This document shows, piece after piece, positions 7,712 to 64,000 of a DNA stretch of 64,000 bases; within the stretch, counting starts at the first letter, position 1; every line of letters starts with the position of its first letter. The notes under the pieces are model-generated. The model did no database searches and was not told where the DNA came from. It was given only the letters and a program-made list of their open reading frames with translations. The stretch covers positions 5,952-69,951 of the forward strand of contig JAILEU010000137.1 in NCBI GenBank assembly GCA_024697785.1, written 5' to 3'. A program made the translations under genes and the position numbers. The DNA is from Bacteroidaceae bacterium. GTDB lineage: Bacteria; Bacteroidota; Bacteroidia; Bacteroidales; Bacteroidaceae.

Positions 7712-7713
7712 AA

Positions 7714-7812
7714 TTTACGATTTACGATTTACGATTTATTGACGATTTGACGATTGACGATTTATTTACGATTTGACGATTTGACGATTTACGATTTACG
7801 ATTTACGATTTA
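7714..7812. repeat. tandem word repeat TACGATT / TGACGATT (about 13 units)
   Basis: tttacgatttacgatttacgatttattgacgatttgacgattgacgatttatttacgatttgacgatttgacgatttacgatttacgatttacgattt. Confidence 0.95.
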
Positions 7813-7844
7813 GAAATAAGAACTATACAATATAAAATATAATA

Positions 7845-10800
7845 ATGAAAAACAAGACCGTTCATTCATCCTTCTTCACCTGTCGTTTCACGCTGCTCGT
7901 GTCGGTTCTGCTGTGCCTCAGCGGCGCGGCGCGTGCCCAGGAGAAGGGCGAGACACTCTTCATCTACTTCAACGACGGCACCATCAAGGCCTTCCCGACC
8001 GAGCTCATCGAGAACACCAACATGGACCTCAAGTCGTACGTCCGTCTGACGCTGGCGGGCGACACCGTCGTCTCGTACCAGAAGATGCTCATCGACTCCA
8101 TCAGCCACTACGGCCCCGAGGTGCCCTCGTTCACGTCGTTCAAGTTCAACAACAAGTTCAACGAGAACCTGCCCACCGACGCCGAGGTGGCCGAGGTGAC
8201 GGACACGATGACGTTCACCGTCAACGCCATCGGCAAGCGCCTGACGCCCTCGTTCCAGCTGAGCGACGACAACGCCCGCGTCTTCATCGGCGCCGCCGAG
8301 CAGAAGTCCAAGGAGTCGCGCCTCCGCTTCGACCACGACATCACCTACACCGTCTCGCTGCCCGGCGACAGCGTCTATGCCTACCAGAAAATCAAGGACG
8401 AGGTGTGGAGCGAAGAGGTGTGGAGCGAAGAGGTGTGGAGCGAGCCCGTCGAGGAGATTGCCCTCCGCGCCGACATGCTCTCGACCAACCAGCCCACCAA
8501 CTACCCGGGCAGCGAGGACCTCGCGATGATGCTCGACGGCGACTGGAGCACCTACCACCAGTCCACGTGGGGCTCCAACGGCATCTATACCCAGAAGAGC
8601 GAGAACGTCTGCCTCGACATCGTCCTCGACGAACCCATCAGCGTGTTCCAGTTCTACTACGTCACGCGTAACTACGAGAACTACAACCCCCTCGCCTTCA
8701 CCATCTGGGCAGCGGGCGACGACGGCGTCTGGAAGGCCCAGCGCAAGCTCGGCGTCGCCGACGGCATGCCCACCTACTTCGGCAACAGCGAGTACACCTC
8801 GCCCTCCATCGAGCTCGACGCCTCCTACCGCCGCCTGCGCTTCGAGCTCACCGAGGCCGAGCACACCAAGCAGCAGCCCGACGGCTTCATCCTCCCTTAC
8901 CTGTCGCTGGCCGAGCTGCGCCTCTACAAGGTCAACGGCGGCGAGCGCGTGCTCATCAAGCCCTCCGAGCTCATCCACCCCGCCGAGCTGCTCGAGCCCG
9001 CCGTCTGGTATAAGGGCATGCGCCCCTACGGACACGACTACACCGTGCGCGTCGATTTCCTCACCGACCACGCCACATCCGTCCCCCGCATCGACATCGA
9101 CATCGAGGGCGGACAGATGGTCAGCAGCAAGAGCTACTACCTGCCCGCCGCCTTCCACCTCGACGGCGGCGGCGTCTTCGACGACCTCGAGGACAGCATC
9201 CTCATCCGGGGCCGCGGCAACAGCAGCTGGGCAGGCACCTGGGGTAAGAGCCCCTACAACATCAAGTTCGCCGAGAAGGTCAAGCCCTTCGGCCTCACCA
9301 AAGGCAAGAGCTGGTGCCTCATCGCCAACGCCCAGACCGGCTCCATGATGGTCAACGCCATCGGCATGAAGGCCGCACGCATGATGGGCACCGCCGGCGC
9401 CAACCACGTCATACCCGTCGACCTCTACATCAACGGCAACTATCGCGGCAGCTACACCTTCACCGAGAAGGTCGGCCTCCACAACAACAGCATCGACGCC
9501 GACGAGATGACCAGCTACATGCTCGAGCTCGACTCGTACTACGACGAGGACTACCGCTTCTACTCGCGCCCCTACACCCTGCCCGTCAACGTCAAAGACC
9601 CCGACCTCTCCGACGAACCCTTCTGGCAGGATGCCGACGAGCGCTTCCAGACCATCCAGGACCAGTTCAACGCCTTCACGCAGGCCCTCATGAACCAGAA
9701 CGGCTACGAGGACATGATCGACCTCGACGCCTTCGCCCGCTTCTTCATGGTCAACGACCTCATCAACAACATGGAGCTCGGCCACCCCAAGAGCACCTTC
9801 CTCTACCGCGAGAACTACGCCGACCCCGAGTCGAAGTACACCTTCGGACCCGTCTGGGACCTCGACTGGGCCTACGGCTACGAGAACAGCTCACGCTACT
9901 TCCAGCGCGACGCCAAGACCTCCATCTTCAGCAAGATGACCGGACAGTCGGGCAACAACTTCTTCATGGCCATGCTCGACAACAGCGAGCAGGTGCGCAA
10001 GGCCTACTACCGCGTGTGGGTCGAGTTCATGCGCAGCCACTACGAAGAGTTCCTCGAGTATCCGCGCGACTACTTCGCCTATGCCCGTCCCTCGCTCGAG
10101 GCCAACGCCGACATGTGGGGCGACGGACGCAACTACGCCAGCCAGCTGCCGCAGATCGAGACCTGGTTCGACGACCGCACCCAGTGGATTATGGACAACA
10201 TCGAAGTCTTCGACCTGGGCGACGACTCGCCCTTCCTCTCCATCGGCGACGTCAACACCGACGGCATCTACTCCGTGCTCGACGTCGTCACCCTGCTCGC
10301 CTACATGCTGGGCGAAGGCCCCGAGGAGTTCAGCTTCAAGCAGGCCGATGTCGATAAGAACGGCATGATCACCGTCACCGACCTGGTGTGCGTCATCGAC
10401 TACGTGCTGAAGGCCGACAAGCAGGCCTCGCACGCCGCCGTGCGCCGCCTCGGCCCCGCCGAGGTGCAGCTCGCCGCCGGCGCCTTCAGCGCCCGTCTGG
10501 GCGAGCCCGCCGACCTCGACGTGCAGCTCGTGCCCGTCGCCGATGCCGACGACGACGTCACCTACACCGGCTGCGAGCTCGTCGTCCGCCTCCCCGAGGG
10601 GATGGTGCTCGAGCGCGCCGCCCTCGCCGACGGCTGCCTGACCCACACCGTCGTCACCGCACCCCTCGACGAGCGCCACACCCGCGTCCTCGTCTATGCC
10701 GACGACAACAGCCCCCTGCCCCTCGGCAGCCTCCTCAGGCTCACCCTGCGCCCCGACGCCGTCGTCGCTGAAGGCGAGCGCTCCGTCACCCTCGCCGACG

Positions 10801-53655: not shown

Positions 53656-54876
53656 CTAAAATGTCCTCTTCTTCAGCAGCCGGCCGATGGCCTTGTCGAG
53701 CGACTCTGTGGGTTCGATGATAGTATAGTCCTCCCAGAACGCCGTGTCGCGGAAGTAGTCCACCTTATCGAAGAAAGCATCACGCTGGTCAAACGAGTCG
53801 CGTCCACGTATGGGCTGCACGTCTGCGCCCGAGGTGATGCTCGTCACGGCCATCTCGCATAAGGCGGCAAACGAGGTGGCGAACAGGCGTCGGCGCCAGT
53901 CGCAGTTGAAGCGCATCGTCGCGCGGAGGTAGCTGATGCGCGTCAGGCCGTCGGCACCCGTGCGGTAGTCAACGACAAGCGACATCTCCTTCGGTCTGAA
54001 GCGCAGCCCCACAGGCTTCTTCACCAACAGCGCCCGGGTGGCCTTGAGAAGGTCGCGCATGTCGAGCTCCAGCTCGGCACGCGTGAAGGCCAGCGACTCC
54101 TGGTCGATGTACAGCCTGCCGTAGTAGAGCGCATAGTCCGCCGTCAGGCGGGGAGCGAGGCTGACGACATACTGCGGACGGTCGGCAATCGTCGTCGGCA
54201 CCTCCATCTTCAGCTCGTAAAGGTCGAGCTCGTCGGCGTCAAGCAGAAACTCGTCGTTCTTCACCACATCCAGTTGCACGGCATAGTTCGGTCCGCCCAT
54301 CACCTTCACGCCCAGCGTGTCGCTGGCCTTCTGGCTCATCAGCCTTCGCCCCTTGCGGATGGCTGTCCGGTCATGGACGACCGCGCGGCGATAGCCCGTC
54401 TTGTACATATCCACCACGCCCTCGGCCACGCTGATGTAGTTCTGCCGCTTCATCACCTTCTCCCGATAGAAGCAATGGTAGAGTTCCGGTTCGCGGCTGT
54501 AGTTGTCGGGGATGCGCTCCATGGCGGCCAGCACCAGCTGGCGTGCATCGCCGCCCATCACCAGCACCTCCTGCAACCGTATGGCCGCAGGCTTCAGCGC
54601 TATCAGCAGCGGTCCGTCGGGCTGTTCGGCAAGGACGATGAGCCGGGAAGCATAGCCGAGGTGCGACACCACGAGTTCGTCGCCCGCCGCATGGCTCTTC
54701 AGCGTAAAGAACCCGTCGTCGTTGGTGACAACAGTCAAGGAGCCCATTGCCACGCTGGCGCCGCCGACCGGCTCGCGGGTATCAGCATCCACAACCGTAC
54801 CGCTCACCACTACCCGCTGTGCCCATCCTACGACGGCCATCAGCAGCAACATCCCTATTAGCAGCGTCCTTTTCAT
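53656..54876 (-). CDS. carboxypeptidase-regulatory-like domain protein
   Basis: Signal peptide MKRTLLIGMLLLMAVVGWA, then the CarboxypepD_reg motif VSGTVVDADTREPVGGASVAMGSLTVVTNDDGFFTL. Confidence 0.7.
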   Translation of the reverse strand: MKRTLLIGMLLLMAVVGWAQRVVVSGTVVDADTREPVGGASVAMGSLTVVTNDDGFFTLKSHAAGDELVVSHLGYASRLIVLAEQPDGPLLIALKPAAIRLQEVLVMGGDARQLVLAAMERIPDNYSREPELYHCFYREKVMKRQNYISVAEGVVDMYKTGYRRAVVHDRTAIRKGRRLMSQKASDTLGVKVMGGPNYAVQLDVVKNDEFLLDADELDLYELKMEVPTTIADRPQYVVSLAPRLTADYALYYGRLYIDQESLAFTRAELELDMRDLLKATRALLVKKPVGLRFRPKEMSLVVDYRTGADGLTRISYLRATMRFNCDWRRRLFATSFAALCEMAVTSITSGADVQPIRGRDSFDQRDAFFDKVDYFRDTAFWEDYTIIEPTESLDKAIGRLLKKRTF

Positions 54877-54911
54877 ATTATAAATCGGACAAGCGGCAAG
54901 ACGAACAGACT

Positions 54912-55919
54912 TCAGCCTAAAAAGAATTCAGAGACGTTCTTGCTCCACGCGGCGTTGTGGATGACGCGCTTCACGTTGTGGTCGCGAAGGAAGCAGAGGT
55001 GGTAGCTGCGGTCCACAGTCATCTGATAGAGAGGCTTGTCGGATAGGTCGGCGAAGATAACCTCGCGATGCAGCCCCACGCTCTCCATAGCGTGGCGAAG
55101 GGAATACTCGAAGGCGCGGTCGCCGCCCGCGAAGGTATAGAGGTAGGTGGCGGTCTGTTCGGGGGTGACGAGTTCTACGGCAGCACGGCCATCCTTGAGG
55201 CCGGCAAACCAGAAGCCGTCGCCGTCCATGCGGTAAAGTCCCGTCAACATCGTGCAGCCGCAGTCTCGAATGAGACGATAGTTGTCGAGCCGTTCGCCCA
55301 GCCGCTCGTCCAGATGGCTGTCGAGCTCCTGATGAGCCCTTCGCCATTGCGCCGCCACGGTCTTGCGCGCCTTGCACATCTTCTCGAACACGGCGCTGGT
55401 GTCGCGGCCGATACGGCTGAAGCGGTATGTGTCGCCGGTGTCAAGGGTGAGCGTGATGCCGAAGTTCTCCTCTACGGGCTCGCCTGCGAAGCAGAGCGGT
55501 ATGCGGCGGGCCAGGTGGTCGTGCGGACAGAGAATGAGGGCATCGTCAAGCAGTTCGATTTTGGCGATGCCATGCTGTGCGGCGCCCTGCTCGGTAAAGG
55601 CGTAGTCGCCCTCGCCCGTGTAGAGGGGCGTACCCTCGGCAAACAGAGCCTCCTTGCTCCGCTGCATGTAGGCGTTCCAGAGGTTCTCGAAGAACGACTC
55701 CGTGTCGTGTCCCAGCTCCGAGAGTTGTATCTCGCCGGAGTTTGTGATAAGAAAAAGGTGGTAGCCCCGCAGGCGGAAATCCTGCAATTCGCAATAGTTG
55801 ATCTGGCGGAGCGACTTGCCGGCCGTAATGCCGAGCATCTCACGTCCGATGGCACACGTCGCAGGCTCTGGCCGCCCACCTTCCGTCAGCAGGCAAGTGT
55901 AGGTTCCCTTGTCGCTCAT
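54912..55919 (-). CDS. hypothetical protein
   Basis: ATG 55919 lies 4 nt after the stop of the zinc-ribbon gene. Codon usage is coherent and no motif is recognised. The longer track start (55982) would overlap the upstream gene. Confidence 0.6.
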   Translation of the reverse strand: MSDKGTYTCLLTEGGRPEPATCAIGREMLGITAGKSLRQINYCELQDFRLRGYHLFLITNSGEIQLSELGHDTESFFENLWNAYMQRSKEALFAEGTPLYTGEGDYAFTEQGAAQHGIAKIELLDDALILCPHDHLARRIPLCFAGEPVEENFGITLTLDTGDTYRFSRIGRDTSAVFEKMCKARKTVAAQWRRAHQELDSHLDERLGERLDNYRLIRDCGCTMLTGLYRMDGDGFWFAGLKDGRAAVELVTPEQTATYLYTFAGGDRAFEYSLRHAMESVGLHREVIFADLSDKPLYQMTVDRSYHLCFLRDHNVKRVIHNAAWSKNVSEFFLG

Positions 55920-55923
55920 GACG

Positions 55924-56670
55924 CTACAGTTTGGTGCCGCACTCGCCGCAGAACTTCGTGCCGGCCTCGTTCTCGTGGCCACACTTGGGGCACACGGCCT
56001 TGCCGCCTACGGGAGCGCCACACTCGCTGCAGAACTTCGTGCCCTGCTGCACCAACGCCCCGCAGTTGGGACACTTGAGCAGGCTGAGTGGTTTTCCGCA
56101 GTTGTTGCAGAACTTTCCCTGTCCGGCGGGTTTGCCGCAATGGGGGCAAATAGTTGTGCGCTCCTCGAGCTTGCCGTGCCAGACGGTGGCCGTCTCCGCC
56201 ATCTCGTCTATGTTACGGCGCATGGCCTGGCTGCGCGCCTTGGCCACATACGAACTCTCACGCGGAGCGCAGTTCGTGCAGAGGCCTTCCTCCTCGTTCC
56301 AGCAGTCGGCGCACACCCAGCTGTTGCACGAGGGACATTTCTGGAACTGCGGACGAACCTCCTCCTGAGCCTCGTCGAACGACTCCTCCTGCTCCTTGCG
56401 CCATTGGGGACTACGGTCCTCCATGCGGTCGCGCAGCATGTTGGCTCCGTTCTCGATGGCGTTGCTCAGTCCGCTCAGCTTGCCGCCGAACAGGTTGTTC
56501 AGCAAGCTGGCGCCACGGCCGATGCCCTCGGCACGTTTGCGGTTGTTGTAGGTCGTCGACTCTTTGAACGTACTCTTGAAGCCGTTTCCGCAGCAGTCGC
56601 AGTAAAACTCATACTGGAAGCCGGCATCGGTTGACAAATCGTTGTAATTTTTTGTGAAGCTGTGTAACAT
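55924..56670 (-). CDS. multi-zinc-ribbon protein
   Basis: At least six CxxC pairs (CDCCGNG, CPSCNSWVCADC..CTNC, CPHCG..CNNCG, CPNCG..CSECG, CPKCG..CGECG). The TACCTTTG box at 56704-56711 overlaps the longer track start, which favours ATG 56670. Confidence 0.7.
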   Translation of the reverse strand: MLHSFTKNYNDLSTDAGFQYEFYCDCCGNGFKSTFKESTTYNNRKRAEGIGRGASLLNNLFGGKLSGLSNAIENGANMLRDRMEDRSPQWRKEQEESFDEAQEEVRPQFQKCPSCNSWVCADCWNEEEGLCTNCAPRESSYVAKARSQAMRRNIDEMAETATVWHGKLEERTTICPHCGKPAGQGKFCNNCGKPLSLLKCPNCGALVQQGTKFCSECGAPVGGKAVCPKCGHENEAGTKFCGECGTKL

Positions 56671-56703
56671 GGCTGTTTTTGTAAGAAAGTTATTATTTGT
56701 GGG

Positions 56704-56711
56704 CAAAGGTA
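56704..56711 (-). promoter_or_regulatory. -7 box TACCTTTG upstream of zinc-ribbon operon
   Basis: Minus-strand TAnnTTTG 34 nt upstream of ATG 56670. Confidence 0.45.
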
Positions 56712-57019
56712 CAGGAAAATATAATAAAAAGGAAAAAAAACAGAAAAAAAATACTGCTGTCCGCTATAAGCCCCCCGATGGGGGCGTAATTAAGAATGGC
56801 CACTTGGCCACTTTTTTTATTTTTGTACCTTCAGAAGCATTATATAGACTCCTTAAATAAATAGATAGCGCAAATATAGCGCTTTTTCTGGAAAATATCT
56901 CTTTCTGTCAAAAAAAACTATTTTCCGCAAGGCTTGTGGGGATTGGCGGGAAAGACAGGGAGGGGACATCTTCTCTTTTCCTCTTCTTATTATAAAGGAA
57001 TTTCGCAAAAAAGTGCCAA

Positions 57020-57115
57020 CACCTACCTAAAGCAACATAACCAACTATGATACTGGGCGTTATCATAGGTAGGTGTTTGTCAAACACCTACCTAACACCT
57101 ACCTAACACCTACCC
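57020..57115. repeat. CACCTACCTA word array with a perfect 14-bp-stem hairpin
   Basis: taggtaggtgtttg-t-caaacacctaccta (57066-57094), followed by acacctaccta x2. One further copy lies at 57020-57029. Confidence 0.85.
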
Positions 57116-57300
57116 CAGCCGCTTCGCCACGCCATCCTTCGCCCCTCTGGTGACATCTGCTAGTATCGCATCTGGATACTTCTTCCGTATCGTCTCTGGC
57201 TTGACATGTAGTCGAGCCTGCTCACGCTCGGCAGAGCTGATACAAGCATCGCTCTGCACTCACTCAATCGCAGCCTTCTTTCGTTTTGATTCGATGATGA

Positions 57301-57772
57301 TCATAATTCTATTAATACAACCCAACGACCTTCTTTTCTGCCACCTTCACGCATTAGAGCCCCCATCCATTTCACGTTTTATGGTCTTTACCGAAACCTT
57401 TATCTTTTGGGGCATTTCTTGAATGGTTATAGTGTCATTTGCCTTCATTTCCTTAATCAAAAGCACTTGACGCTCAGACAGTTCTTTTGGGTCATCTTTT
57501 GGGCCATTACGACCCTGTTCAGAGTTGCTCACATTATTCCTCTGGAATGTCACACTAACTCCTCCGCAGAAGTTTTCCACCTTGGGCATAGGTAATCCTG
57601 CACTCTCAAAACCCTCACGAATCTTTTTGTAACCACGTCCCCAGGCATCTATAAAACCAGCCTTAAAGAAGGCGTACACATACAGATGCGTGTATGGGCC
57701 GATCACGTAGAAGTTTGGAATGAAGGAGAACTGCCTGCTAGTTACACACCTGAGACGATATTGGGACAACAT
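57301..57772 (-). pseudogene. 5'-truncated, frameshifted remnant of an AlbA_2/HATPase_c_4-type (RecG-like) transcriptional regulator
   Basis: Only the C-terminal about 160 aa remain: FKAGFIDAWGRGYKKIREGFESAGLPMPKVENFCGGVSVTFQR plus the wHTH LSERQVLLIKEMKANDTITIQEM. The expected tail (..LMREGGRKEGRWVVLIEL*) continues in a frame shifted by one nt after about 57360. Confidence 0.6.
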
Positions 57773-57894
57773 TCTTCACGCCAACGTAACAAGAATATAG
57801 CCAACGCCTGTATAGTTTTTATGAATTCTGCCACTCATAATCCCGTGTTCAGTTGTCGTTTTTGATAAGTGAGCTACTTATCTTGATGAGAGGA

Positions 57895-58140
57895 TTAAAT
57901 ATGCAAGTAGTCTGTTTCAAATATGATATAACCGTCATTTTTTTGAACCTTAGGTTCTTTTACCCAACACGGAAGTTTTTTTAATTCTTCAATAACTGTA
58001 GGGACATTTTCAACGACCAAATAATCTTTTTTTAAATCTTTACTTGTGGAATATGAAAAATCCACTCCACATTTCCTACAAATCTCAATAGCCTGTATAT
58101 TATAATACAGGTGGTCATGTTTAACACTTTTTTTTTCCAT
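57895..58140 (-). CDS. hypothetical small protein
   Basis: 81-aa AT-rich ORF, co-directional with the island operon. It has a single CxxC (CRKCG) and no family is recognised. Confidence 0.4.
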   Translation of the reverse strand: MEKKSVKHDHLYYNIQAIEICRKCGVDFSYSTSKDLKKDYLVVENVPTVIEELKKLPCWVKEPKVQKNDGYIIFETDYLHI

Positions 58141-58185
58141 AACTATTATTGTTGTTTTGTTTAATGTAAATAAAAACTTTCAGTT

Positions 58186-58416
58186 TTATAAATAAAGCTT
58201 GAAAATTCTTCGTTTCTCTCTTCTCGCTATATCATGCCAGTCTATAGAATAGCCCACAAAAAAAGAATCCTCTGTTATATACTTGCTTTCTTCATTCTTT
58301 AACTTAATAGAAACTGATTGAGACAATGACTGAAAACACATATTTCTACCTTTCTCTAGTTCCATAGCAAATGATTTCAGTTCCTCATTTACATAGTTCC
58401 TCATCCTGAATTCCAC
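58186..58416 (-). CDS. hypothetical small protein
   Basis: 76-aa AT-rich ORF, 168 nt downstream of the helicase stop. No family is recognised. Confidence 0.35.
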   Translation of the reverse strand: MEFRMRNYVNEELKSFAMELEKGRNMCFQSLSQSVSIKLKNEESKYITEDSFFVGYSIDWHDIARREKRRIFKLYL

Positions 58417-58583
58417 ATTTTCATATTATAATGAACTTATTCGGAAACAGCGATATGCAAACTGATAAAGGCCAAGCCGTTGCAACAACTTGCCCAATCT
58501 ATAATACTTATACAAGTCATTCTCTTCTTTGGGGGTCATAAAGACAGATTTATATATTTTACGTCTAGTGGAAAATGTAATAC

Positions 58584-61196
58584 TCAGTCTGACGATTTGG
58601 AACTATTGACCAAAATGTTTTCAAGATTCAAAAGACGCGCTTTCTTCTCAGAATTCATTTCTTCAAAATGTTCCATAACTTCATTGTGTGTTCCTAAGAA
58701 ATAGGAGATTTTATTTTCATATGTGATATATAATCGTTTCTTGGCTCTAGACATTGCAACATAAAGAACGCGTGCTTCTTCGTCAACATTTGTGGAATTT
58801 TTTGGCATTCTTCCATTTGTTATGTCATAAAGAATAACATTGTCAAATTCCAAACCTTTAGCCTTATGTATCGTCATAATAAACATACGTTCATTCAACA
58901 CGCCATTCTGGAAGAAATCTCCTTCGTTGAAAGTTCTAAATTCATATAAATGATTAACCAATTGGTGATTGAAATACACATCCTTCGCTGAATCTATGAC
59001 AACTTTGTTAAACAATTTCCTTATATAAGGGAAGAGTTTGATTTCTTTAATGATTTTTTGACTAACCATTTGATTATATATGTGGTTAAACTCGTAATCA
59101 AAGGTGTTCTCATTATTGATGGTAGCTGAGTACATCTTATTCATAGTATGCTGATATAAAAGCCAATATTTGTTCATCAATCTTCTCTGAACCTTCTTTA
59201 ATTCAGGATGAGAGATAAAGCTTGCCTGAACATCTACAAACTTTGACATTTTTTCATAGCAATAATCTGTGAGAGACTTTGTTGCTCTGATGTCATCTAA
59301 TGCATTATGAGAATTAACACCTTCAAGACCATAAGTTTCTAGGAGACTTTCCAATGTATGCTTTCTAAGGTTCGGATCTAACATTCTTGCCATTTTAAGA
59401 GTGTCCCAATATACTGGAGTCCTGAAAGTGACATTCTTTGTCCTTCTTGTGATATTATTTTCAAGGACATGAACATCGTAGTTCACATTATGACCTAACA
59501 ATTCAGCGTTGCCTATATAATTCACAAAAAAGTCAAATGCCTCTTCTGCTTCCATGAAATACTGGTTTTCTTTTTGTTTTTGTGTACCGTTGCTTCTTCT
59601 TTTATACTCTTCTACCATGGGATTAACAAGTCCATTATGGAGTGTGGGAGGGATCGTTTTGTCGTTCTGCAATTTAATAATAATATCCAATTCTGTGCCA
59701 GGAACGATCTTCCCATTTCTCATCTTCAAGGCTGCAATCTGAATAATGTCATCGTTAAATATGTCTAATCCTGTTGTCTCTGTGTCGAACAACACAATTT
59801 CCTTATCCTCATATGATTTGCAAAATTCAATAAAATAAGAACTGTTTTCATAGAACATCAGATCCAGTGGTGTTAATCCTATATCTCTCATTTTCTTGAT
59901 GCATCTTTTTGAGAGTTTCAACGTGTCAAGTGCTTTCGTTTGGTAAAGAATTCGTGCCCAATCAGAAAATCTTGTGTCATTTACGACCACGGAGAAATGA
60001 CTATACAATGTCTTAAAATCCACCAATTTGAAAACATCTCTTTTTGACAGCTTAATATGTGTGATATTGTGATTATCAAGAATTTCTGAGATTCTTTCTG
60101 CATCGTCATTTGTACGTACAAGGATTCCTACGGATTCTAAATCTTTCTCATTTTTAGTTTCTTCATATTTTTCTAGACTATTTAAATATAAGTTGCGTCC
60201 AAGTGTTGCAATAACATTTAGTTGGTCATCTCTACTATTACAATTTATCAGCATTAGTCCATCGTCTATATGCTGTTTGTTGTTTGTTCTTGGCAACAAG
60301 GTGGCATCATCAACTTTTAGTCTATAAATAGCATAGTTATTTAGCATGTCAAGCAAGTACATCGGTGAGCGGTAGTTGTTTGACAGTACGAAAAAGTTAT
60401 TACCTGCCTTTTCTTTTAGAGATACAATACTATCATGCTTCGCACCTAAGAATGAATATATAGCTTGTCTCTCATCACCAAGATAAACTACGGATTCATA
60501 GTCTTTCGCAACGAGTTTTTCTATAATGCCTAACTGAATTGGATATAGGTCTTGCACCTCATCAACTTGAATCCATTTGTAAGATGAATATTGATACTTA
60601 TGCTGATAGCCTTCTTCCATCAATGCCTTATAGGTAATTAACAGAATGTCATCAAAGTCTATTAACTTATTTTCTTCCTTGTACTTAATATACCTTTCAG
60701 CCAAGTCCCTTGTACTGCTATCAATGTAAGGTTCCCTACCGATAATCTCAAAAGGGAAACCATTGGACTTCATATAAATTGAAGCCGCAACATTTGTTGT
60801 TTTCATTATCTGCCATCCAGGGACTTGAGGCTTTTCCGTTAATTCTGCAATAATTTCTTCTTGCTCGGTATCATCCGCAATACCAACATCAATAGGGACT
60901 AAATCGTTTTCATAAATGAATCTTATGCAGAAGCGATGTAAGTTGCCAACGAAAAGGTCTGCCATCACATCACCAACAGTTTTTTTTATGCGTTCTTTCA
61001 TTTCTCGAGAAGCTCTGTTTGTAAATGTTAGGCACAGCATATCCCTGTAGTCAACGTTATAAATCTGATGAGAAAAAGCAACCCTATAACTAAGAATGTC
61101 GGTCTTTCCACATCCTGGAGCACCGAGGACGAGAGCATGGCCACTATTAAACTTTATGACCTCATTCTGTTTGTTATCAAAAACTTTATCTGCCAT
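58584..61196 (-). CDS. UvrD/Rep-family SF1 helicase with inserted DEDDh (DnaQ-like) 3'-5' exonuclease domain
   Basis: 870-aa ORF with helicase motifs in order: Walker A GAPGCGKT (aa 25-32), Ia LTFTNRASREM, II VDEVQD (211-216), III YLGDERQAIYSF, IV LSNNYRS (271-277), V MTIHKAKGLEFD (774-785), VI VLYVAMSRAKKRLYI (810-824). Between IV and V lie ExoI LFDTETTG (D471, E473), ExoII GHNVNYD (D574) and ExoIII HNALDD (H630, D635), corresponding to about nt 59262-59798. Confidence 0.9.
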   Translation of the reverse strand: MADKVFDNKQNEVIKFNSGHALVLGAPGCGKTDILSYRVAFSHQIYNVDYRDMLCLTFTNRASREMKERIKKTVGDVMADLFVGNLHRFCIRFIYENDLVPIDVGIADDTEQEEIIAELTEKPQVPGWQIMKTTNVAASIYMKSNGFPFEIIGREPYIDSSTRDLAERYIKYKEENKLIDFDDILLITYKALMEEGYQHKYQYSSYKWIQVDEVQDLYPIQLGIIEKLVAKDYESVVYLGDERQAIYSFLGAKHDSIVSLKEKAGNNFFVLSNNYRSPMYLLDMLNNYAIYRLKVDDATLLPRTNNKQHIDDGLMLINCNSRDDQLNVIATLGRNLYLNSLEKYEETKNEKDLESVGILVRTNDDAERISEILDNHNITHIKLSKRDVFKLVDFKTLYSHFSVVVNDTRFSDWARILYQTKALDTLKLSKRCIKKMRDIGLTPLDLMFYENSSYFIEFCKSYEDKEIVLFDTETTGLDIFNDDIIQIAALKMRNGKIVPGTELDIIIKLQNDKTIPPTLHNGLVNPMVEEYKRRSNGTQKQKENQYFMEAEEAFDFFVNYIGNAELLGHNVNYDVHVLENNITRRTKNVTFRTPVYWDTLKMARMLDPNLRKHTLESLLETYGLEGVNSHNALDDIRATKSLTDYCYEKMSKFVDVQASFISHPELKKVQRRLMNKYWLLYQHTMNKMYSATINNENTFDYEFNHIYNQMVSQKIIKEIKLFPYIRKLFNKVVIDSAKDVYFNHQLVNHLYEFRTFNEGDFFQNGVLNERMFIMTIHKAKGLEFDNVILYDITNGRMPKNSTNVDEEARVLYVAMSRAKKRLYITYENKISYFLGTHNEVMEHFEEMNSEKKARLLNLENILVNSSKSSD

Positions 61197-61206
61197 ATTG
61201 TTTAAT

Positions 61207-62763
61207 TTATAATTGAACGAAACAGCATCTGCCGGTTTCTTTCATCCAAGATTTATGTTCTTGATATGCTTTTTCATTTTCACATACCCATACAACTTTT
61301 GTTTTGAATCGTTTTGGCTTTTTGGGTTTAGGAGCATCTCCGTCTGTAAAGATAATAAGACCGTCATATTTTAGCTTTTTTTGTATAAAGTCAAAGATTG
61401 GTTGAAAACTCGTTCCTCCTCTTCCAACAATTTCAATTCTTTTCTTTGCCTTTTCAAAAGTCTGAACTTCGCTTAAACTGCAATCAAATTGTACAACATC
61501 TACATGTTCTACTCCGTATTTGAACAGTTTTCTTATAACCGAATAGAAATGTGTCAGTACTTCGTCTGATATTGAACCACTTACATCAACTGCAATCAAT
61601 ATATTCGTATCAAATCTACGTATGCTCCCCATGTTTTCAAAACCGGAACGTCTGTTTGGACGCATTCTTGTAAGATGCCTTTTCGATGATAAGATGCTAG
61701 CTCTAAATCCAGTTAAAGTTTTCCGGTAATCAATTTTTGCCTTAGTATTAGCAATAATTGTTTGAGCTAGGTTTCCTGCTAAACTCCCCCAACCAGCTCC
61801 GGATGACTCTATTTCTTCTATGATAGCATCTATCGTACAACTCATCATGCTATCTTCTTCCCATAGTGATGATAGGTCTGCTGATGGTATAGTTTTATTC
61901 TTTGGCTGATTATCGAATATTCTTTTTTCTTTAGGGTGTCCTCCTTGACGGTTTTGCTCTGAAGGTATATTGGGATTATCAGCATTTGAATCATCGGCTT
62001 CTGAATTTTGGTTCGGTTTATTTGTTTTTGAAGAAGAACTTTTGGGAATGCGCATTATAGAGCCATCTGCCAATGTCAGTACAAAGTAATTATCGTCAGA
62101 ATCGTTTGATTGCGTTGAACCTTTGAAAGGTTCTTCATCGTTAGATGCGGACGAACCATTAGGCTCTATACTTGAGGAAGAATCCTCACCTGTCTTGCTG
62201 TTCTTGTCGGTGTTTTTGTCGGTTTCTGAATCATCATCAAAACTATTACCTTCTTGATTGGGAGACGTTTCGTTGACTTTCTCTTTCTCGTTTTCTATTT
62301 TGCTTGTATCGCTATTATTATCAGTACTTTGAATTTCCACATCTCCATTTTCATCTGGCACAAGACCTTTTCCTTCAATTCGCATAGAATACCATTCATA
62401 ACTCTCATTTTCAGGCAAATTGAAGTCTGATGGTTTGGGCAGATTAATGTCTGTAAAATCATAATTATCAGATAGCACCAGGTTACTTCCTAATGCCATT
62501 GACTTTCTTTTGCATCCATCTGGCTGTCTTTCATATGGATGTTTTAAAATTATACGGATGGCTTCAGCCTTTAAGCAATTTTCTAATTGACTGTCAGATA
62601 ATTTGTTTAATTGTTCTGGATTATACTCAATTTTTCCCTTACCACACCTGAAAGGGCATGACATATTGGCGTTCAGAACCATTTCATGCGCTAATACCGT
62701 CATTAGCAATGCTGGTTCTGTTAAATACCATTTATCAATAATCTGTTTAATCCTTGAATCCAT
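61207..62763 (-). CDS. VWA-domain protein of the DUF2201 type (peptidase-like N-domain, degenerate) that partners MoxR ATPases
   Basis: 518-aa ORF. C-terminal VWA fold with MIDAS DVSGS (D393, S395, S397), T451 and D474, preceded by GWGSLAG...RPNRR. The N-domain (WYLTEPAL...IEYNPE) fits my recollection of DUF2201_N, but the expected HExxH reads AEAIR (aa 66-70). A roughly 150-aa acidic/Ser/Asn-rich linker lies between the two domains. Confidence 0.85.
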   Translation of the reverse strand: MDSRIKQIIDKWYLTEPALLMTVLAHEMVLNANMSCPFRCGKGKIEYNPEQLNKLSDSQLENCLKAEAIRIILKHPYERQPDGCKRKSMALGSNLVLSDNYDFTDINLPKPSDFNLPENESYEWYSMRIEGKGLVPDENGDVEIQSTDNNSDTSKIENEKEKVNETSPNQEGNSFDDDSETDKNTDKNSKTGEDSSSSIEPNGSSASNDEEPFKGSTQSNDSDDNYFVLTLADGSIMRIPKSSSSKTNKPNQNSEADDSNADNPNIPSEQNRQGGHPKEKRIFDNQPKNKTIPSADLSSLWEEDSMMSCTIDAIIEEIESSGAGWGSLAGNLAQTIIANTKAKIDYRKTLTGFRASILSSKRHLTRMRPNRRSGFENMGSIRRFDTNILIAVDVSGSISDEVLTHFYSVIRKLFKYGVEHVDVVQFDCSLSEVQTFEKAKKRIEIVGRGGTSFQPIFDFIQKKLKYDGLIIFTDGDAPKPKKPKRFKTKVVWVCENEKAYQEHKSWMKETGRCCFVQL

Positions 62764-62764
62764 T

Positions 62765-63847
62765 CTATGCCTTTATTCCACTTGTGTATTTAACGACCTC
62801 TCTATATACTGTGAAGGCTTCAGACGCAACAAAATGAGCTGCTTCTTCATATTTTTTGTCATTCAAATAATGGGCAAAACTTGCCAGCACTTCGTTTTTA
62901 CTATAACTTTTAAGATATCCTATATACTTTTCAAGGTTGCTGGCAACTTTCTTATTATTTGAAAGAACATCAAGGTGGCTTTCAAGAAACATGAATATAT
63001 CCTCATTCAGGATTGTAAACTGATGAAGGGACAAATCAGATAACAATGGAACTATCAACTCAAAATCATTCAAGAGATCTTTTGCATCAACAGTTTTGTT
63101 CTGTCCAATATTTTTGATAAAAAAGTTTGTTGCCTTAACACCAACGATGCTAGACATTAACAACACATCATTCTTCTCTAAGGTTTTTTTTCCTTTTATA
63201 ACATCAGAAACTCTTTTCCATGCGCGTCTGTCTGGAGTCTTATCTAGTCCAGTATCTTCACCCTCTTCTAAGGAAGGGTCTTTATCCAACCATATGCCAT
63301 TATCCCTTATAAATGAGATTACTCTTGAATCCAAATCTTTTTTCTGTGCCCAAATAATCCATTCTTCAACAGAGGGTTCAAACCTAAAGATGTTGAATCG
63401 GGATACAAGGGCAGGGTCTAAGTCTGTGAGTTGATACTCTTCACCTTCATTTACTGCAGCGATTATTCGACTGCCTTTTGGCAAGTGCTTCCCAGCCAAT
63501 TTCCTATTAAGAGCTAAATCCATAATCGTTTGTAATACCTCAGGGCGAGCACGATTCAACTCATCTAAGAACAAAACAATAGGTTTGCCATCAACAGGAA
63601 ACCAATATGGCGGCATAAACTCGGTTTTGCCTGTTTTCTCATCTTTGTTTGGGAGGCCAATAAGGTCTCCAGGGTCTGACATTTGGCCTAGGAACAAGGG
63701 AATGACAATCATCCCTTTCTGCGAGAAGTATTCGGTTAATATTTCCGACTTACCGATACCATGCCTTCCAGCTAACATGATATTTTGGTCTGCTGGAATG
63801 TTGTCCAACATATATTTCAACTGAGTAATGTTAACTTTAACGTTCAT
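62765..63847 (-). CDS. MoxR-like AAA+ ATPase (AAA_5 type)
   Basis: 360-aa ORF with Walker A GRHGIGKS (K33), Walker B VLFLDELNRA (D95, E96), sensor-1 IIAAVN and arginine finger ALVSRF. The C-terminal about 190 aa is a helical extension with no recognised motif. Confidence 0.9.
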   Translation of the reverse strand: MNVKVNITQLKYMLDNIPADQNIMLAGRHGIGKSEILTEYFSQKGMIVIPLFLGQMSDPGDLIGLPNKDEKTGKTEFMPPYWFPVDGKPIVLFLDELNRARPEVLQTIMDLALNRKLAGKHLPKGSRIIAAVNEGEEYQLTDLDPALVSRFNIFRFEPSVEEWIIWAQKKDLDSRVISFIRDNGIWLDKDPSLEEGEDTGLDKTPDRRAWKRVSDVIKGKKTLEKNDVLLMSSIVGVKATNFFIKNIGQNKTVDAKDLLNDFELIVPLLSDLSLHQFTILNEDIFMFLESHLDVLSNNKKVASNLEKYIGYLKSYSKNEVLASFAHYLNDKKYEEAAHFVASEAFTVYREVVKYTSGIKA

Positions 63848-63912
63848 TTTCTGTATGTATTTCTATTTACTCTAATTGTGCAATCTTTTTTTCAGCATTG
63901 ATTTTTCAACCG

Positions 63913-63920
63913 CAAAGATA
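63913..63920 (-). promoter_or_regulatory. -7 box TATCTTTG upstream of the AAA+/VWA/helicase operon
   Basis: Minus-strand TAnnTTTG 66 nt upstream of ATG 63847, in an AT-rich spacer. Confidence 0.45.
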
Positions 63921-64000
63921 ATAAGTTTATGCGAATTCTTTGTTCGTTCACAGATTTTTTTTATTCATTACTGAAATCATGTTAAATTCTCTCATCATTG

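What the first reader, a model, noticed from the sequence alone, without database searches (positions are those of the whole stretch)
58584..61196. SF1 helicase with a DnaQ-like exonuclease inserted between helicase motifs IV and V
Motifs I-IV occupy aa 25-277 and motifs V-VI occupy aa 774-824. In the roughly 500-aa region between them, where UvrD/Rep/PcrA carry the regulatory 2B subdomain, lies a full DEDDh module: FDTETTG at 470-476, GHNVNYD at 568-574, HNALDD at 630-635 (nt about 59262-59798). In fusions I know of, such as the Gram-positive DinG type, the exonuclease is terminal rather than nested. A nested nuclease would sit directly over the DNA emerging from the motor, which suggests obligatorily coupled unwinding and 3'-5' degradation.
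Basis: partly seen in the sequence, partly recalled or inferred. Interest (0 to 1): 0.75.

Follow-up and report, generated by a model that had tools for sequence, protein, structure and literature searches.

The report
UvrD-type helicase with embedded exonuclease
This gene really does encode a DNA helicase with a proofreading-type 3'-5' exonuclease built into its regulatory 2B region; the design is widespread in Bacteroidales but unstudied, and this copy sits in a conserved three-gene cassette on a foreign DNA island, probably a DNA-degrading defence module.

Summary
ORF 58584-61196 (-) encodes an 870-aa UvrD/PcrA/Rep-type SF1A helicase. A DnaQ/PolC-type DEDDh exonuclease (aa 466-651) lies between helicase motifs IV and V. 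Every catalytic residue of both enzymes is conserved in relatives down to about 28% identity.

The exonuclease does not replace 2B. It has helical flanks on both sides (about 82 aa before, 116 aa after), and the first canonical 2B helix is still recognisable. The flanks and exonuclease are predicted to form one rigid unit (pTM 0.91).

The architecture is not rare. At least 134 clusters (50% identity) carry it, mostly Bacteroidales, often among housekeeping genes. NCBI's pipeline labels them "3'-5' exonuclease". I found no paper or curated family describing it.

The window's copy belongs to one clade that always follows a MoxR-like AAA+ ATPase gene and a DUF2201 VWA gene. This operon lies on a 33%-GC island in a 59%-GC genome. 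In other genomes it sits beside known defence genes.

Best reading: a new variant of helicase-nuclease, probably the effector of an undescribed MoxR-VWA-gated DNA-targeting system. "Obligatorily coupled unwinding and degradation" remains untested.

The parts
62765..63847 (-). MoxR-like AAA+ ATPase (360 aa), first gene of the operon
   Evidence: Pfam AAA_5 at 22-151, E 1.6e-8. PHROG phrog_1297 'ATPase', E 3.9e-50. Walker A GRHGIGKS and Walker B LFLDELNRA are read from the translation. It lies directly upstream of the VWA gene in 47 of 52 related loci.
61207..62763 (-). DUF2201 VWA-like protein (518 aa). It has a conserved N-domain with a degenerate metallopeptidase motif, a hypervariable acidic linker (about aa 130-300), and a C-terminal VWA domain with an intact MIDAS site
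   Evidence: Pfam DUF2201 at 389-498, E 7.7e-16. Alignment A2 shows D393-x-S395-x-S397, T451 and D474 invariant, and A66-E67-x-x-R70...H75 where, from my recollection of the DUF2201_N family description, an HExxH motif would be expected. One base lies between the MoxR stop codon and the VWA start codon.
58584..61196 (-). SF1A UvrD/PcrA/Rep-type helicase with a nested DEDDh exonuclease (870 aa), third gene of the operon
   Evidence: The start codon lies 10 nt after the VWA stop codon.
60048..61196 (-). Helicase subdomains 1A, 1B and the N-terminal half of 2A (aa 1-383; motifs Q, I, Ia, II, III, IV)
   Evidence: hhalign of A1 against E. coli UvrD: aa 5-377 align with UvrD 9-371, probability 99.9%, E 1.3e-35. 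G28, G30, T32, D212, E213, Q244 and R276 are invariant and K31 nearly invariant.
59802..60047 (-). N-terminal helical flank at the 2B position (aa 384-465; five helices)
   Evidence: The profile alignment to PcrA, UvrD and Rep continues through the first 2B helix, to PcrA 404, UvrD 402 and Rep 406. Helices 392-464 appear in the AF2 model.
59244..59801 (-). DnaQ/PolC-type DEDDh 3'-5' exonuclease domain (aa 466-651): ExoI D471/E473, ExoII D574, ExoIII H630/D635
   Evidence: Pfam RNase_T E 6.9e-20. PDB profile hits are the PolC exonuclease domain 2p1j (E 1e-19), DnaQ 8h18 and S. aureus DinG 8zef. Foldseek TMt is 0.79 to DnaQ domain 8h18. The catalytic residues are kept in at least 82 of 84 family sequences.
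58896..59243 (-). C-terminal helical flank at the 2B position (aa 652-767; about eight helices)
   Evidence: AF2 secondary structure. It packs with the N-flank and the exonuclease as one unit (module model pLDDT 94.6, pTM 0.91). No sequence similarity to UvrD 2B was detectable.
58584..58895 (-). C-terminal half of 2A (motifs V and VI) plus a C-terminal helix (aa 768-870) and the stop codon
   Evidence: aa 768-828 align with UvrD 551-616 and PcrA 544-621. T775, K780, G781 and R817 are conserved.
57900..64000 (.). Low-GC (27-36%) foreign island carrying the operon. It runs off the window's end
   Evidence: GC is about 61% up to 56.6 kb, 38-49% from 56.7 to 57.8 kb, and 27-34% from 57.9 kb. The rest of the window averages about 59%.

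Best explanation
The gene encodes a catalytically competent 3'-5' SF1A (UvrD/PcrA/Rep-like) DNA helicase. Its 2B subdomain carries a rigidly embedded DnaQ/PolC-type DEDDh 3'-5' DNA exonuclease.

It belongs to a large, uncharacterised, mainly Bacteroidales family. In most members the gene is a stand-alone chromosomal gene, probably for repair. The window's copy belongs to one clade that was recruited as the third gene of a MoxR AAA+ ATPase - DUF2201 VWA - helicase/exonuclease operon. That operon is carried on horizontally acquired islands.

Proposed mechanism (inferred, not shown): the helicase loads on a free 3' single-stranded end or a nick and translocates 3'-5'. The exonuclease in the mobile 2B unit degrades a 3'-ended strand. 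The result is one polypeptide that resects DNA, comparable to UvrD working with ExoI or ExoX. In the operon, the VWA protein would bind through its MIDAS site and the MoxR ATPase would remodel the complex. Together they would gate this activity so that it is released on invading or abnormal DNA. On this reading the cassette is a DNA-degrading defence or conflict module.
For: Shown:
- The ORF and its nested domains.
- Structural match to UvrD, PcrA and Rep, Foldseek E 1e-25 to 1e-22; hhalign probability 99.9% to E. coli UvrD 9-371; the 2A C-terminal half aligns with UvrD 551-616.
- The exonuclease fold matches DnaQ, PolC and epsilon.
- All helicase and DEDDh catalytic residues are invariant in 43 homologues and kept in at least 82 of 84 sequences at 28-45% identity.
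- The full-length model is confident (pLDDT 88, pTM 0.83). The isolated module (flanks plus exonuclease) has pTM 0.91.
- The three genes are nearly contiguous, separated by 1 and 10 nt.
- MoxR, VWA and helicase-exonuclease occur together in every sampled lineage at 45-100% helicase identity. This includes one lineage where the helicase gene is inverted relative to the pair.
- The three proteins diverge in parallel.
- Operon-linked helicases form one clade in a neighbour-joining tree.
- The island is about 33% GC in a 59% GC genome.
- Neighbours in other genomes are defence genes: PbeA (E 7e-290) and a PbeC/LmuB-like ATPase, a TmtA/MkoA-like giant protein, a WYL regulator with type I-like methyltransferases, and type I restriction-modification genes.
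- The MoxR-VWA pair is a modular core. In other loci the genes next to it encode SprT-like peptidases, a DUF559 (to my knowledge Vsr-like) endonuclease, TerB or a PIF1-like helicase.
Against: - No biochemical data exist for any family member.
- PADLOC (2023) has no model for the MoxR or VWA proteins, and no paper describes the cassette. The defence role therefore rests on guilt by association.
- Most family members lie among housekeeping genes, so the ancestral role is probably repair rather than defence.
- From my knowledge of UvrD and PcrA DNA complexes, 2B sits over the duplex ahead of the motor, not at the 3' exit. How the nuclease reaches a 3' end is therefore unclear.
- The helical flanks could not be shown to have the 2B fold beyond the first helix.
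Confidence: 0.6

Rival explanations
1. It is simply a DNA-repair helicase-nuclease, for example a one-polypeptide excision enzyme for nick-directed mismatch or gap repair or for processing stalled forks. The copy on this island does the same housekeeping job. The MoxR-VWA pair would act as an assembly or activation chaperone, or in repair of DNA-protein crosslinks, not in defence.
For: Most family members are stand-alone chromosomal genes among housekeeping genes: pheS, murB, trmB and glyA in P. nigrescens, and MurQ-like, TrmA and saccharopine dehydrogenase genes in other loci. Both activities are under strong purifying selection. Related MoxR-VWA pairs sit next to SprT/WLM-type peptidases; from my own knowledge these are DNA-protein crosslink proteases in other organisms. 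Characterised MoxR-VWA systems such as NorQD and RavA-ViaA are described as chaperones or remodellers in the paper abstracts returned.
Against: The window copy is on a 33%-GC island in a 59%-GC genome. The operon clade has a patchy, island-borne distribution next to PbeA, Tiamat/Mokosh-like and restriction-modification genes and conjugative-transposon genes. This pattern is typical of accessory conflict genes, not core repair.
Confidence: 0.22
2. The cassette serves the mobile element that carries it. For example, a PcrA-like helicase could support rolling-circle or conjugative DNA processing, or the cassette could counter host nucleases. The exonuclease would trim 3' ends of transfer or replication intermediates.
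For: In one lineage the cassette lies beside genes I take to be from a conjugative transposon (DUF4099, Toprim_2). A related helicase-exonuclease is on a 76-kb Phocaeicola vulgatus plasmid, next to Fic, RhuM and recombinase genes and within about 5 kb of PcfJ/PcfK genes. Distant MoxR and VWA homologues exist in N4-like phages.
Against: The flanking mobile-element genes differ between lineages, while only the three genes stay together. No integrase, relaxase or replication gene is consistently linked. The nested helicase-exonuclease was not found among the viral-contig matches or in phage records; those matches are about 600-aa helicases without the insert, or exonuclease domains alone.
Confidence: 0.12
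3. The exonuclease domain is a structural or regulatory insert, for example a DNA-end or 3'-OH sensor controlling the 2B switch, rather than a working nuclease.
For: One natural variant (P0107, 47% identical) has lost the DEDDh residues (D471N, E473M, H630 region changed) but keeps the domain and all helicase motifs. This shows the scaffold can persist without catalysis.
Against: That variant is the only one of the 120 listed clusters without a Pfam RNase_T hit. All five catalytic residues are invariant in 43 homologues and kept in at least 82 of 84 distant family sequences.
Confidence: 0.06

Closest known systems
UvrD / PcrA / Rep (SF1A helicases; PDB 2is2, 3pjr, 1uaa)
   Same: Same motor. 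All helicase motifs are present, and 1A, 1B and 2A align along their length (hhalign 99.9%; Foldseek E about 1e-25). An insertion occupies the 2B position, and its first helix is still homologous.
   Different: The 2B-position insert is 384 aa against 173 aa in UvrD and contains a complete DEDDh exonuclease. The rest of the insert shows no detectable sequence similarity to canonical 2B. Scores are far below the NCBIfam equivalog cut-offs (173 bits against 911 for PcrA), so it is not an orthologue.
Gram-positive DinG (e.g. S. aureus DinG, PDB 8zef) and, from my own knowledge, WRN: helicases fused to a DEDD-type exonuclease
   Same: One polypeptide combines a DnaQ-like 3'-5' exonuclease with a helicase. 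The exonuclease domains are homologous (8zef residues 8-187, E 3e-13).
   Different: In DinG the matching exonuclease lies at the N-terminal end of the chain (residues 8-187 of 897). From my own knowledge, DinG and WRN are SF2 helicases and WRN's exonuclease is also N-terminal. Here an SF1A motor carries the exonuclease rigidly embedded inside an accessory subdomain (pTM 0.91 for the module).
RecB / AddA / AdnB (SF1A helicase-nucleases of end resection)
   Same: A UvrD-like 3'-5' motor combined with a nuclease acting on DNA ends. The folds are related (Foldseek E 1e-18 to 1e-13).
   Different: From my own knowledge, those enzymes use a C-terminal PD-(D/E)xK endonuclease and work in multi-subunit complexes. 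No Pfam match to such a domain was found here. Here the nuclease is a nested DEDDh exonuclease.
MoxR-vWA ternary conflict systems (Kaur, Burroughs, Iyer and Aravind 2020, PMC7159879; also PMC12839542)
   Same: A MoxR AAA+ ATPase gene is paired with a vWA-domain protein gene, a third variable component is present, and the set lies in conflict or defence neighbourhoods.
   Different: The vWA partner here is of the DUF2201 type with a degenerate peptidase motif. The third gene is a helicase-exonuclease, not a VMAP or iSTAND protein. That paper's text does not contain 'DUF2201', 'UvrD' or 'exonuclease'.
Gabija GajB and other defence UvrD-like helicases (PADLOC GajB and RTasHel models)
   Same: UvrD-like helicases used in anti-phage systems. 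PADLOC scores are strong (RTasHel E 4.5e-61, GajB E 3.9e-56).
   Different: The matches cover only the helicase parts: the RTasHel profile is 675 positions long against 831 matched residues, and each GajB match is split in two. No GajA (OLD nuclease) or reverse transcriptase gene is nearby.

Membership tests
SF1A UvrD/Rep/PcrA-like helicase superfamily | Helicase motifs I (Walker A), Ia, II (DExx), III, IV, V and VI present and conserved | tested here: met
   GAPGCGKT 25-32, TFTN 57-60, DEVQD 212-216, GDERQ 240-244, YR 275-276, TIHKAKG 775-781, SR 816-817. The key residues (G28, G30, T32, D212, E213, Q244, R276, T775, K780, G781, R817) are invariant and K31 nearly invariant in 43 homologues. 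They are kept in at least 82 of 84 distant members.
SF1A UvrD/Rep/PcrA-like helicase superfamily | Four-subdomain fold, with 1B inserted in 1A and 2B inserted in 2A | tested here: met
   Foldseek top hits are UvrD, PcrA and Rep, E 4e-25 to 1e-21, TMt 0.58-0.68. hhalign covers UvrD 9-371, and the 2A C-terminal half aligns with UvrD 551-616. The fold of the 2B-position insert beyond its first helix was not resolved.
SF1A UvrD/Rep/PcrA-like helicase superfamily | 3'-5' translocation polarity and DNA-dependent ATPase activity | not testable with these tools
   Inferred from homology only.
Orthologue of PcrA, UvrD or Rep (NCBIfam equivalogs) | Score above the curated equivalog cut-off | tested here: not met
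   173 bits against 911 for PcrA, 158 against 1144 for UvrD, and 145 against 951 for Rep.
DEDDh (DnaQ-like) 3'-5' exonuclease | ExoI DxE, ExoII D and ExoIII H-x4-D catalytic motifs | tested here: met
   D471, E473, D574, H630 and D635 are invariant in 43 homologues and kept in at least 82 of 84 family sequences.
DEDDh (DnaQ-like) 3'-5' exonuclease | RNase H-like alpha/beta fold of the DnaQ, PolC and epsilon type | tested here: met
   Pfam RNase_T 72.7 bits against a cut-off of 24. Foldseek TMt 0.79 to 8h18, 0.75 to epsilon (2gui) and 0.70 to the PolC exonuclease domain 2p1j.
DEDDh (DnaQ-like) 3'-5' exonuclease | Metal-dependent 3'-5' exonuclease activity on DNA | not testable with these tools
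   Inferred from conserved residues. The closest sequence and structure matches are DNA-acting enzymes (PolC, DnaQ, DinG), but RNase T and oligoribonuclease also match.
DinG-type helicase-exonuclease fusion | DinG-family (to my knowledge SF2, XPD-like) helicase core with an N-terminal exonuclease | tested here: not met
   The core is UvrD-like SF1A. The exonuclease is internal at aa 466-651. NCBIfam dinG_rel matches only the exonuclease part and far below its cut-off (42.6 against 547.7 bits).
RecB/AddA helicase-nuclease | C-terminal PD-(D/E)xK nuclease domain; score above the recB or addA equivalog cut-off | tested here: not met
   No such domain appears in the Pfam results. recB scores 97 bits against 696, and addA 75 against 708.
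Gabija (GajAB) | The GajB helicase is encoded next to the GajA OLD-family ATPase-Toprim nuclease | tested here: not met
   PADLOC GajB models match (E 3.9e-56), but neither operon partner matches any PADLOC model. Neighbouring genes in the related loci are AAA_5 and DUF2201.
DRT reverse-transcriptase-associated helicase (PADLOC RTasHel) | Adjacent defence-associated reverse transcriptase | tested here: not met
   The RTasHel model matches at E 4.5e-61, but no reverse transcriptase appears in the window's island or in any related locus.
MoxR-vWA ternary conflict system (Kaur et al. 2020) | MoxR-clade AAA+ ATPase gene adjacent to a vWA-domain gene with a MIDAS site | tested here: met
   AAA_5 E 1.6e-8 and DUF2201 E 7.7e-16. 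The MIDAS residues D-x-S-x-S, T and D are invariant. The pair is adjacent in 47 of 52 loci.
MoxR-vWA ternary conflict system (Kaur et al. 2020) | Third component of the VMAP or iSTAND type, and effector domains fused to the vWA protein | tested here: not met
   The third gene is the helicase-exonuclease. The vWA protein carries only a degenerate peptidase-like N-domain (AExxR). The paper's text has no mention of UvrD, exonuclease or DUF2201.

The most novel reading that the evidence does not exclude
The MoxR - DUF2201 VWA - UvrD/DEDDh operon is a previously undescribed anti-phage or anti-plasmid defence system. A AAA+/VWA remodelling pair senses infection and switches the helicase's 2B unit, which carries the exonuclease. 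This turns a latent translocase into a processive machine that unwinds foreign DNA and digests it from free 3' ends. More broadly, the 2B swivel of SF1A helicases would here act as a mechanical arm that delivers a nuclease, a coupling principle not described for any characterised helicase.
Probability: 0.3. Interest if true: 0.75.

Novelty: new variant of a known kind. Interest (0 to 1): 0.55.

Why it matters
From my own knowledge of the field, the 2B subdomain is the central regulatory element of UvrD, Rep and PcrA: its rotation and its partner proteins decide whether the motor merely translocates or unwinds DNA. A large natural family that places a nuclease rigidly inside that element is a ready-made system for asking how 2B movement can be coupled to a second catalytic activity.

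The family may also be an unrecognised excision or resection enzyme in Bacteroidales, which are dominant gut bacteria with poorly studied DNA repair.

The conserved MoxR-VWA-helicase/exonuclease cassette, together with the finding that this MoxR-VWA pair is a modular core with alternative neighbours (SprT-like peptidases, a DUF559 endonuclease, TerB, a PIF1-like helicase), points to an unexplored group of candidate DNA-targeting conflict systems in gut bacteria. The candidate can be tested directly by heterologous expression.

Tried and rejected
1. Homology of the helical flanks to canonical 2B.
- hhalign of the family profile against UvrD 372-560 found nothing.
- phmmer with an exonuclease-deleted construct matched only motifs V and VI.
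- Foldseek with the isolated module returned only DEDDh domains in its top 50.
- Only the first 2B helix could be shown to be homologous.
- So whether the nuclease 'extends' or 'replaces' 2B is settled by position and size, not by fold.

2. Measuring the distance from the exonuclease active site to the DNA path. Model coordinates are not exposed, so this could not be done. TM-scores slightly favour the closed, DNA-bound UvrD and PcrA states (0.66) over the apo open states (0.58-0.60), but this is weak evidence.

3. Literature. Eight full-text searches were run on combinations of UvrD, DnaQ, DEDDh, 2B, MoxR, vWA, DUF2201, Pfam accessions and anti-phage terms. Five papers were also opened. None described this architecture or cassette.

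4. Gabija, DRT, RecB/AddA and DinG membership: rejected (see the membership test).

5. Phage origin of the helicase-exonuclease: rejected. Matches in phage records and viral contigs are exonuclease domains alone or about 600-aa helicases without the insert.

6. Downstream small ORFs (58186-58416, 57895-58140) as system components: rejected. They have no family hits and are absent from the 90%-identical locus L003.

7. tRNA or other integration landmarks near the island: none found. Promoter-like matches are no more frequent than in shuffled sequence (21 against 25.9 expected). Terminator-like matches exceed it (14 against 4.7), mostly in the AT-rich 56.6-57.0 kb region outside the operon, and were not followed up.
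Full report

Yes. One search lists an ATG-initiated 870-aa ORF at 58584..61196 on the minus strand, and all the quoted motifs are at the stated residues.

Pfam gives:
- UvrD-helicase at 8-263 (E 3e-42).
- UvrD_C as one stretch at 270-828 that covers almost the whole profile (2-349 of 350; E 6e-46).
- RNase_T at 468-640 inside that stretch (E 6.9e-20, 72.7 bits against a cut-off of 24).
- UvrD_C_2 at 772-824.

NCBIfam matches PcrA, UvrD and Rep in two pieces, and PolC/DnaQ-type exonucleases at 461-662. All scores are far below the equivalog cut-offs. PDB sequence searches agree: PcrA, UvrD and Rep for the ends, and the T. maritima PolC exonuclease domain, DnaQ and S. aureus DinG for the middle.

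**2. Anatomy**

The family profile aligns with E. coli UvrD 9-371, covering our residues 5-377 (hhalign probability 99.9%). This is 1A, 1B and the first half of 2A. Residues 768-828 align with UvrD 551-616, the second half of 2A with motifs V and VI.

The insert at the 2B position therefore spans about 384-767. That is 384 aa, against 173 aa in UvrD.

Within the insert, the exonuclease alpha/beta fold occupies 466-651. Five helices precede it (384-465) and about eight follow it (652-767).

With the family profile, the alignment to PcrA, UvrD and Rep continues through the first 2B helix, to PcrA 404, UvrD 402 and Rep 406. So the start of 2B is retained and the nuclease is inserted within the 2B region rather than replacing it. 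Beyond that first helix I could not show that the flanks have the 2B fold.

The full-length AF2 model is confident (pLDDT 88.4, pTM 0.83). Its best structural matches are UvrD, PcrA and Rep (E about 1e-25). The isolated module (aa 380-770) models even better (pLDDT 94.6, pTM 0.91). This indicates that the flanks and the exonuclease form one rigid body. Its best matches are DnaQ, PolC, epsilon, RNase T and DinG exonuclease domains (TMt up to 0.79).

**3. Are both enzymes alive?**

In 43 homologues at 45-91% identity, these residues are invariant:
- Walker A G28, G30 and T32 (K31 is nearly invariant).
- D212 and E213.
- Q244.
- R276.
- R817.
- The DEDDh residues D471, E473, D574, H630 and D635.

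In 83 further representatives at 28-45% identity, each of these is kept in at least 82 of 84 sequences. The one exception seen among close relatives is P0107, a 47%-identical protein whose DEDDh residues have decayed while the domain and the helicase motifs remain.

**4. How common is it, and is it known?**

A search of 1.84 billion representative proteins with the 2B-plus-exonuclease module alone found 134 clusters (50% identity) at E<=1e-30 and 477 at E<=1e-10. Most are 800-950 aa with the module at about residues 360-750. A few are much longer fusions.

In species-level genomes, full-length relatives occur in Prevotella, Segatella, Muribaculaceae and other Bacteroidales. More distant relatives (23-30% identity) occur in Glaciecola, Acinetobacter tianfuensis, Megasphaera, other Bacillota, Lentisphaerae and Ignavibacteria.

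NCBI's pipeline calls them "3'-5' exonuclease" or "UvrD-helicase domain-containing protein".

The family was not found among phage records or viral contigs. Matches there are exonuclease domains alone or about 600-aa helicases without the insert.

Eight full-text literature searches and five opened papers produced no description of the architecture. No NCBIfam or PADLOC model is specific for it. It is therefore common but, as far as these tools show, uncharacterised.

**5. Context**

The window is about 59% GC. GC falls to 38-49% at 56.7-57.8 kb and to 27-36% from 57.9 kb to the window's end. The gene therefore lies on a foreign island.

Two genes lie directly upstream on the same strand, almost contiguous with it (gaps of 1 and 10 nt). 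One encodes a MoxR-like AAA_5 ATPase (62765-63847). The other encodes a DUF2201 VWA-like protein (61207-62763).

The same three genes occur together around helicase homologues at 100, 90, 81, 57, 55, 54, 49 and 45% identity. In the 45% lineage the helicase gene is inverted relative to the pair. The three proteins diverge in parallel.

Relatives at 38% identity or less have no MoxR or VWA gene within 7 kb and lie among housekeeping genes:
- MurQ-like, GDSL, saccharopine dehydrogenase, TrmA and AbgT genes in the sampled loci.
- pheS, murB, trmB and glyA in P. nigrescens.

In a neighbour-joining tree the operon-linked proteins form a single clade nested within the Bacteroidales family. This fits recruitment of a chromosomal helicase-exonuclease into a mobile cassette.

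Neighbours of the cassette in other genomes are defence or mobile-element genes:
- PbeA (E 7e-290) with a PbeC/LmuB-like ATPase.
- A TmtA/MkoA-like giant protein.
- A WYL regulator with type I-like methyltransferases.
- Type I restriction-modification genes.
- Genes I take to be from a conjugative transposon.

**6. The partner proteins**

The VWA protein has an intact MIDAS site (D393-x-S395-x-S397, T451, D474). Its conserved N-domain carries AExxR...H where, from my recollection of the DUF2201_N family description, an HExxH peptidase motif would be expected. A hypervariable acidic, serine-rich linker of very variable length separates the two domains.

A metagenome scan shows that this MoxR-VWA pair is a modular core. 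In 12 long loci the helicase-exonuclease follows it. In others the adjacent genes encode SprT/WLM/YgjP-like metallopeptidases, a DUF559 (to my knowledge Vsr-like) endonuclease, TerB, a PIF1-like helicase with an HRDC domain, or unknown proteins.

Distant homologues of both partners exist as PHROG families (phrog_1297 and phrog_1314). Distant MoxR homologues occur in N4-like and other phages.

**7. Mechanism**

Shown: two intact catalytic centres on one chain; a rigid unit of helical flanks plus exonuclease; a conserved operon with a AAA+/VWA pair; island and defence-neighbourhood context.

Inferred: the motor translocates 3'-5' like other SF1A helicases, and the DEDDh domain removes nucleotides from a 3'-OH end. 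The simplest coupling has the motor tracking the strand whose trailing 3' end is fed to the nuclease. This is the reaction carried out by UvrD with ExoI or ExoX in nick-directed excision, or by RecB on the 3' strand.

From my own knowledge of the UvrD and PcrA DNA complexes, 2B lies over the duplex ahead of the motor, and the 3' tail leaves at 1A. Delivery by the 2B swivel is an alternative.

The abstracts returned and the passage read describe MoxR-VWA pairs as remodellers in which the ATPase acts together with its VWA partner on a target. By analogy with these characterised systems, I propose that the pair gates or activates the helicase-nuclease.

**8. Verdict**

The protein is a new variant of the helicase-nuclease theme: an SF1A motor with a DEDDh exonuclease embedded in its 2B region. 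It is widespread but unstudied. This copy is probably the effector of an undescribed MoxR-VWA-linked DNA-targeting cassette.

My confidence is about 0.95 for the architecture and intact active sites, and about 0.85 that the three genes form one functional unit. It is about 0.5 for a defence role and 0.3 or less for obligatory mechanical coupling. Interest is moderate to high (0.55).

Noticed in passing
window 56600-58000 (GC profile) and 57347-57772 (-): The island junction has three steps: 61% GC to 56.6 kb, 38-49% at 56.7-57.8 kb, then 27-34%. The intermediate zone holds a 141-aa ORF with only a weak match to the end of the HATPase_c_4 profile (positions 47-89 of 89; E 1.2e-4). It looks like the C-terminal remnant of a larger gene, possibly truncated by the insertion. 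The same ORF follows the operon in L002.
   Followed up: partly
window 57083-57114: A perfect 11-nt tandem repeat, AACACCTACCT x 2.9, lies in the intergenic zone next to the island junction. A further CACCTACCTA copy and a reverse-complement TAGGTAGGTG are visible about 15 and 60 nt upstream in the sequence read. Function unknown; it could be a recombination or regulator site.
   Followed up: no
loci L119-L179 (e.g. L150:7144-7659, L152:8550-8978, L153:7782-8438, L160:7294-7695, L166:211-2403, L125:5474-5851): The same MoxR + DUF2201-VWA subfamily occurs without the helicase-exonuclease. There it sits next to SprT/WLM/YgjP-like metallopeptidases, a DUF559 endonuclease, TerB, or a PIF1-like helicase with an HRDC domain. 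This suggests a modular family of DNA-linked MoxR-VWA systems that no paper I could find describes.
   Followed up: partly
window 61207-62763 (-), about aa 130-300: The VWA protein contains a hypervariable acidic, serine- and asparagine-rich low-complexity linker. Its length differs by more than 100 aa between homologues, while both flanking domains are conserved. The N-domain has AExxR...H where an HExxH peptidase motif would be expected. The linker could be a DNA mimic or a flexible tether; not tested.
   Followed up: partly
P0107 (826 aa, 47% identical to the window protein): This is a natural variant in which the nested exonuclease has lost its catalytic residues (FDTETTG becomes FNTMTTD; HNALDD becomes TRDDVD, with an 18-aa deletion just before it). 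All helicase motifs are intact. It is the only one of the 120 listed clusters without a Pfam RNase_T hit.
   Followed up: partly
L003:12671-13333 (also L004, L005, L006): In the 90%-identical operon, a separate 220-aa stand-alone RNase_T/DEDDh protein is encoded 64 nt downstream of the helicase-exonuclease. It is 38% identical to the nested exonuclease. The window has unrelated small ORFs in its place.
   Followed up: no
window 58186-58416 (-) and 57895-58140 (-): Two small low-GC ORFs (76 and 81 aa) lie downstream of the helicase. They have no convincing match in Pfam, NCBIfam or PADLOC. They are present in L001 and L002 (the same strain lineage) but not in the 90%-identical locus L003. They are probably unrelated island cargo.
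   Followed up: partly
phage records, e.g. Vibrio phage VBP47 NC_020848.1 3559-4575 (locus L097): Distant homologues (about 30% identity) of the MoxR-like ATPase are widespread in N4-like (Schitoviridae) and some jumbo phages (393 records). The VWA protein matches phrog_1314, which is labelled 'HNH endonuclease', apparently a misleading family label. The role of this pair in phages appears to be unknown.
   Followed up: partly
L098 (Phocaeicola vulgatus plasmid NZ_CP103198.1, locus coordinates 7663-10401): A 912-aa member of the nested helicase-exonuclease family (33% identity over the module) lies on a 76-kb plasmid directly after Fic and RhuM genes. It has no MoxR-VWA pair. This is a second, independent mobile-element context for the family.
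   Followed up: no
window 54274-56634, both strands: Many long overlapping ORFs on both strands (for example 55068-56078 +, 55909-56634 +, 54928-55377 -) overlie the real genes 54912-55982 (-) and 55924-56706 (-, a zinc-ribbon protein). They look like the usual stop-codon-poor artefacts of about 61% GC sequence, not genes.
   Followed up: no
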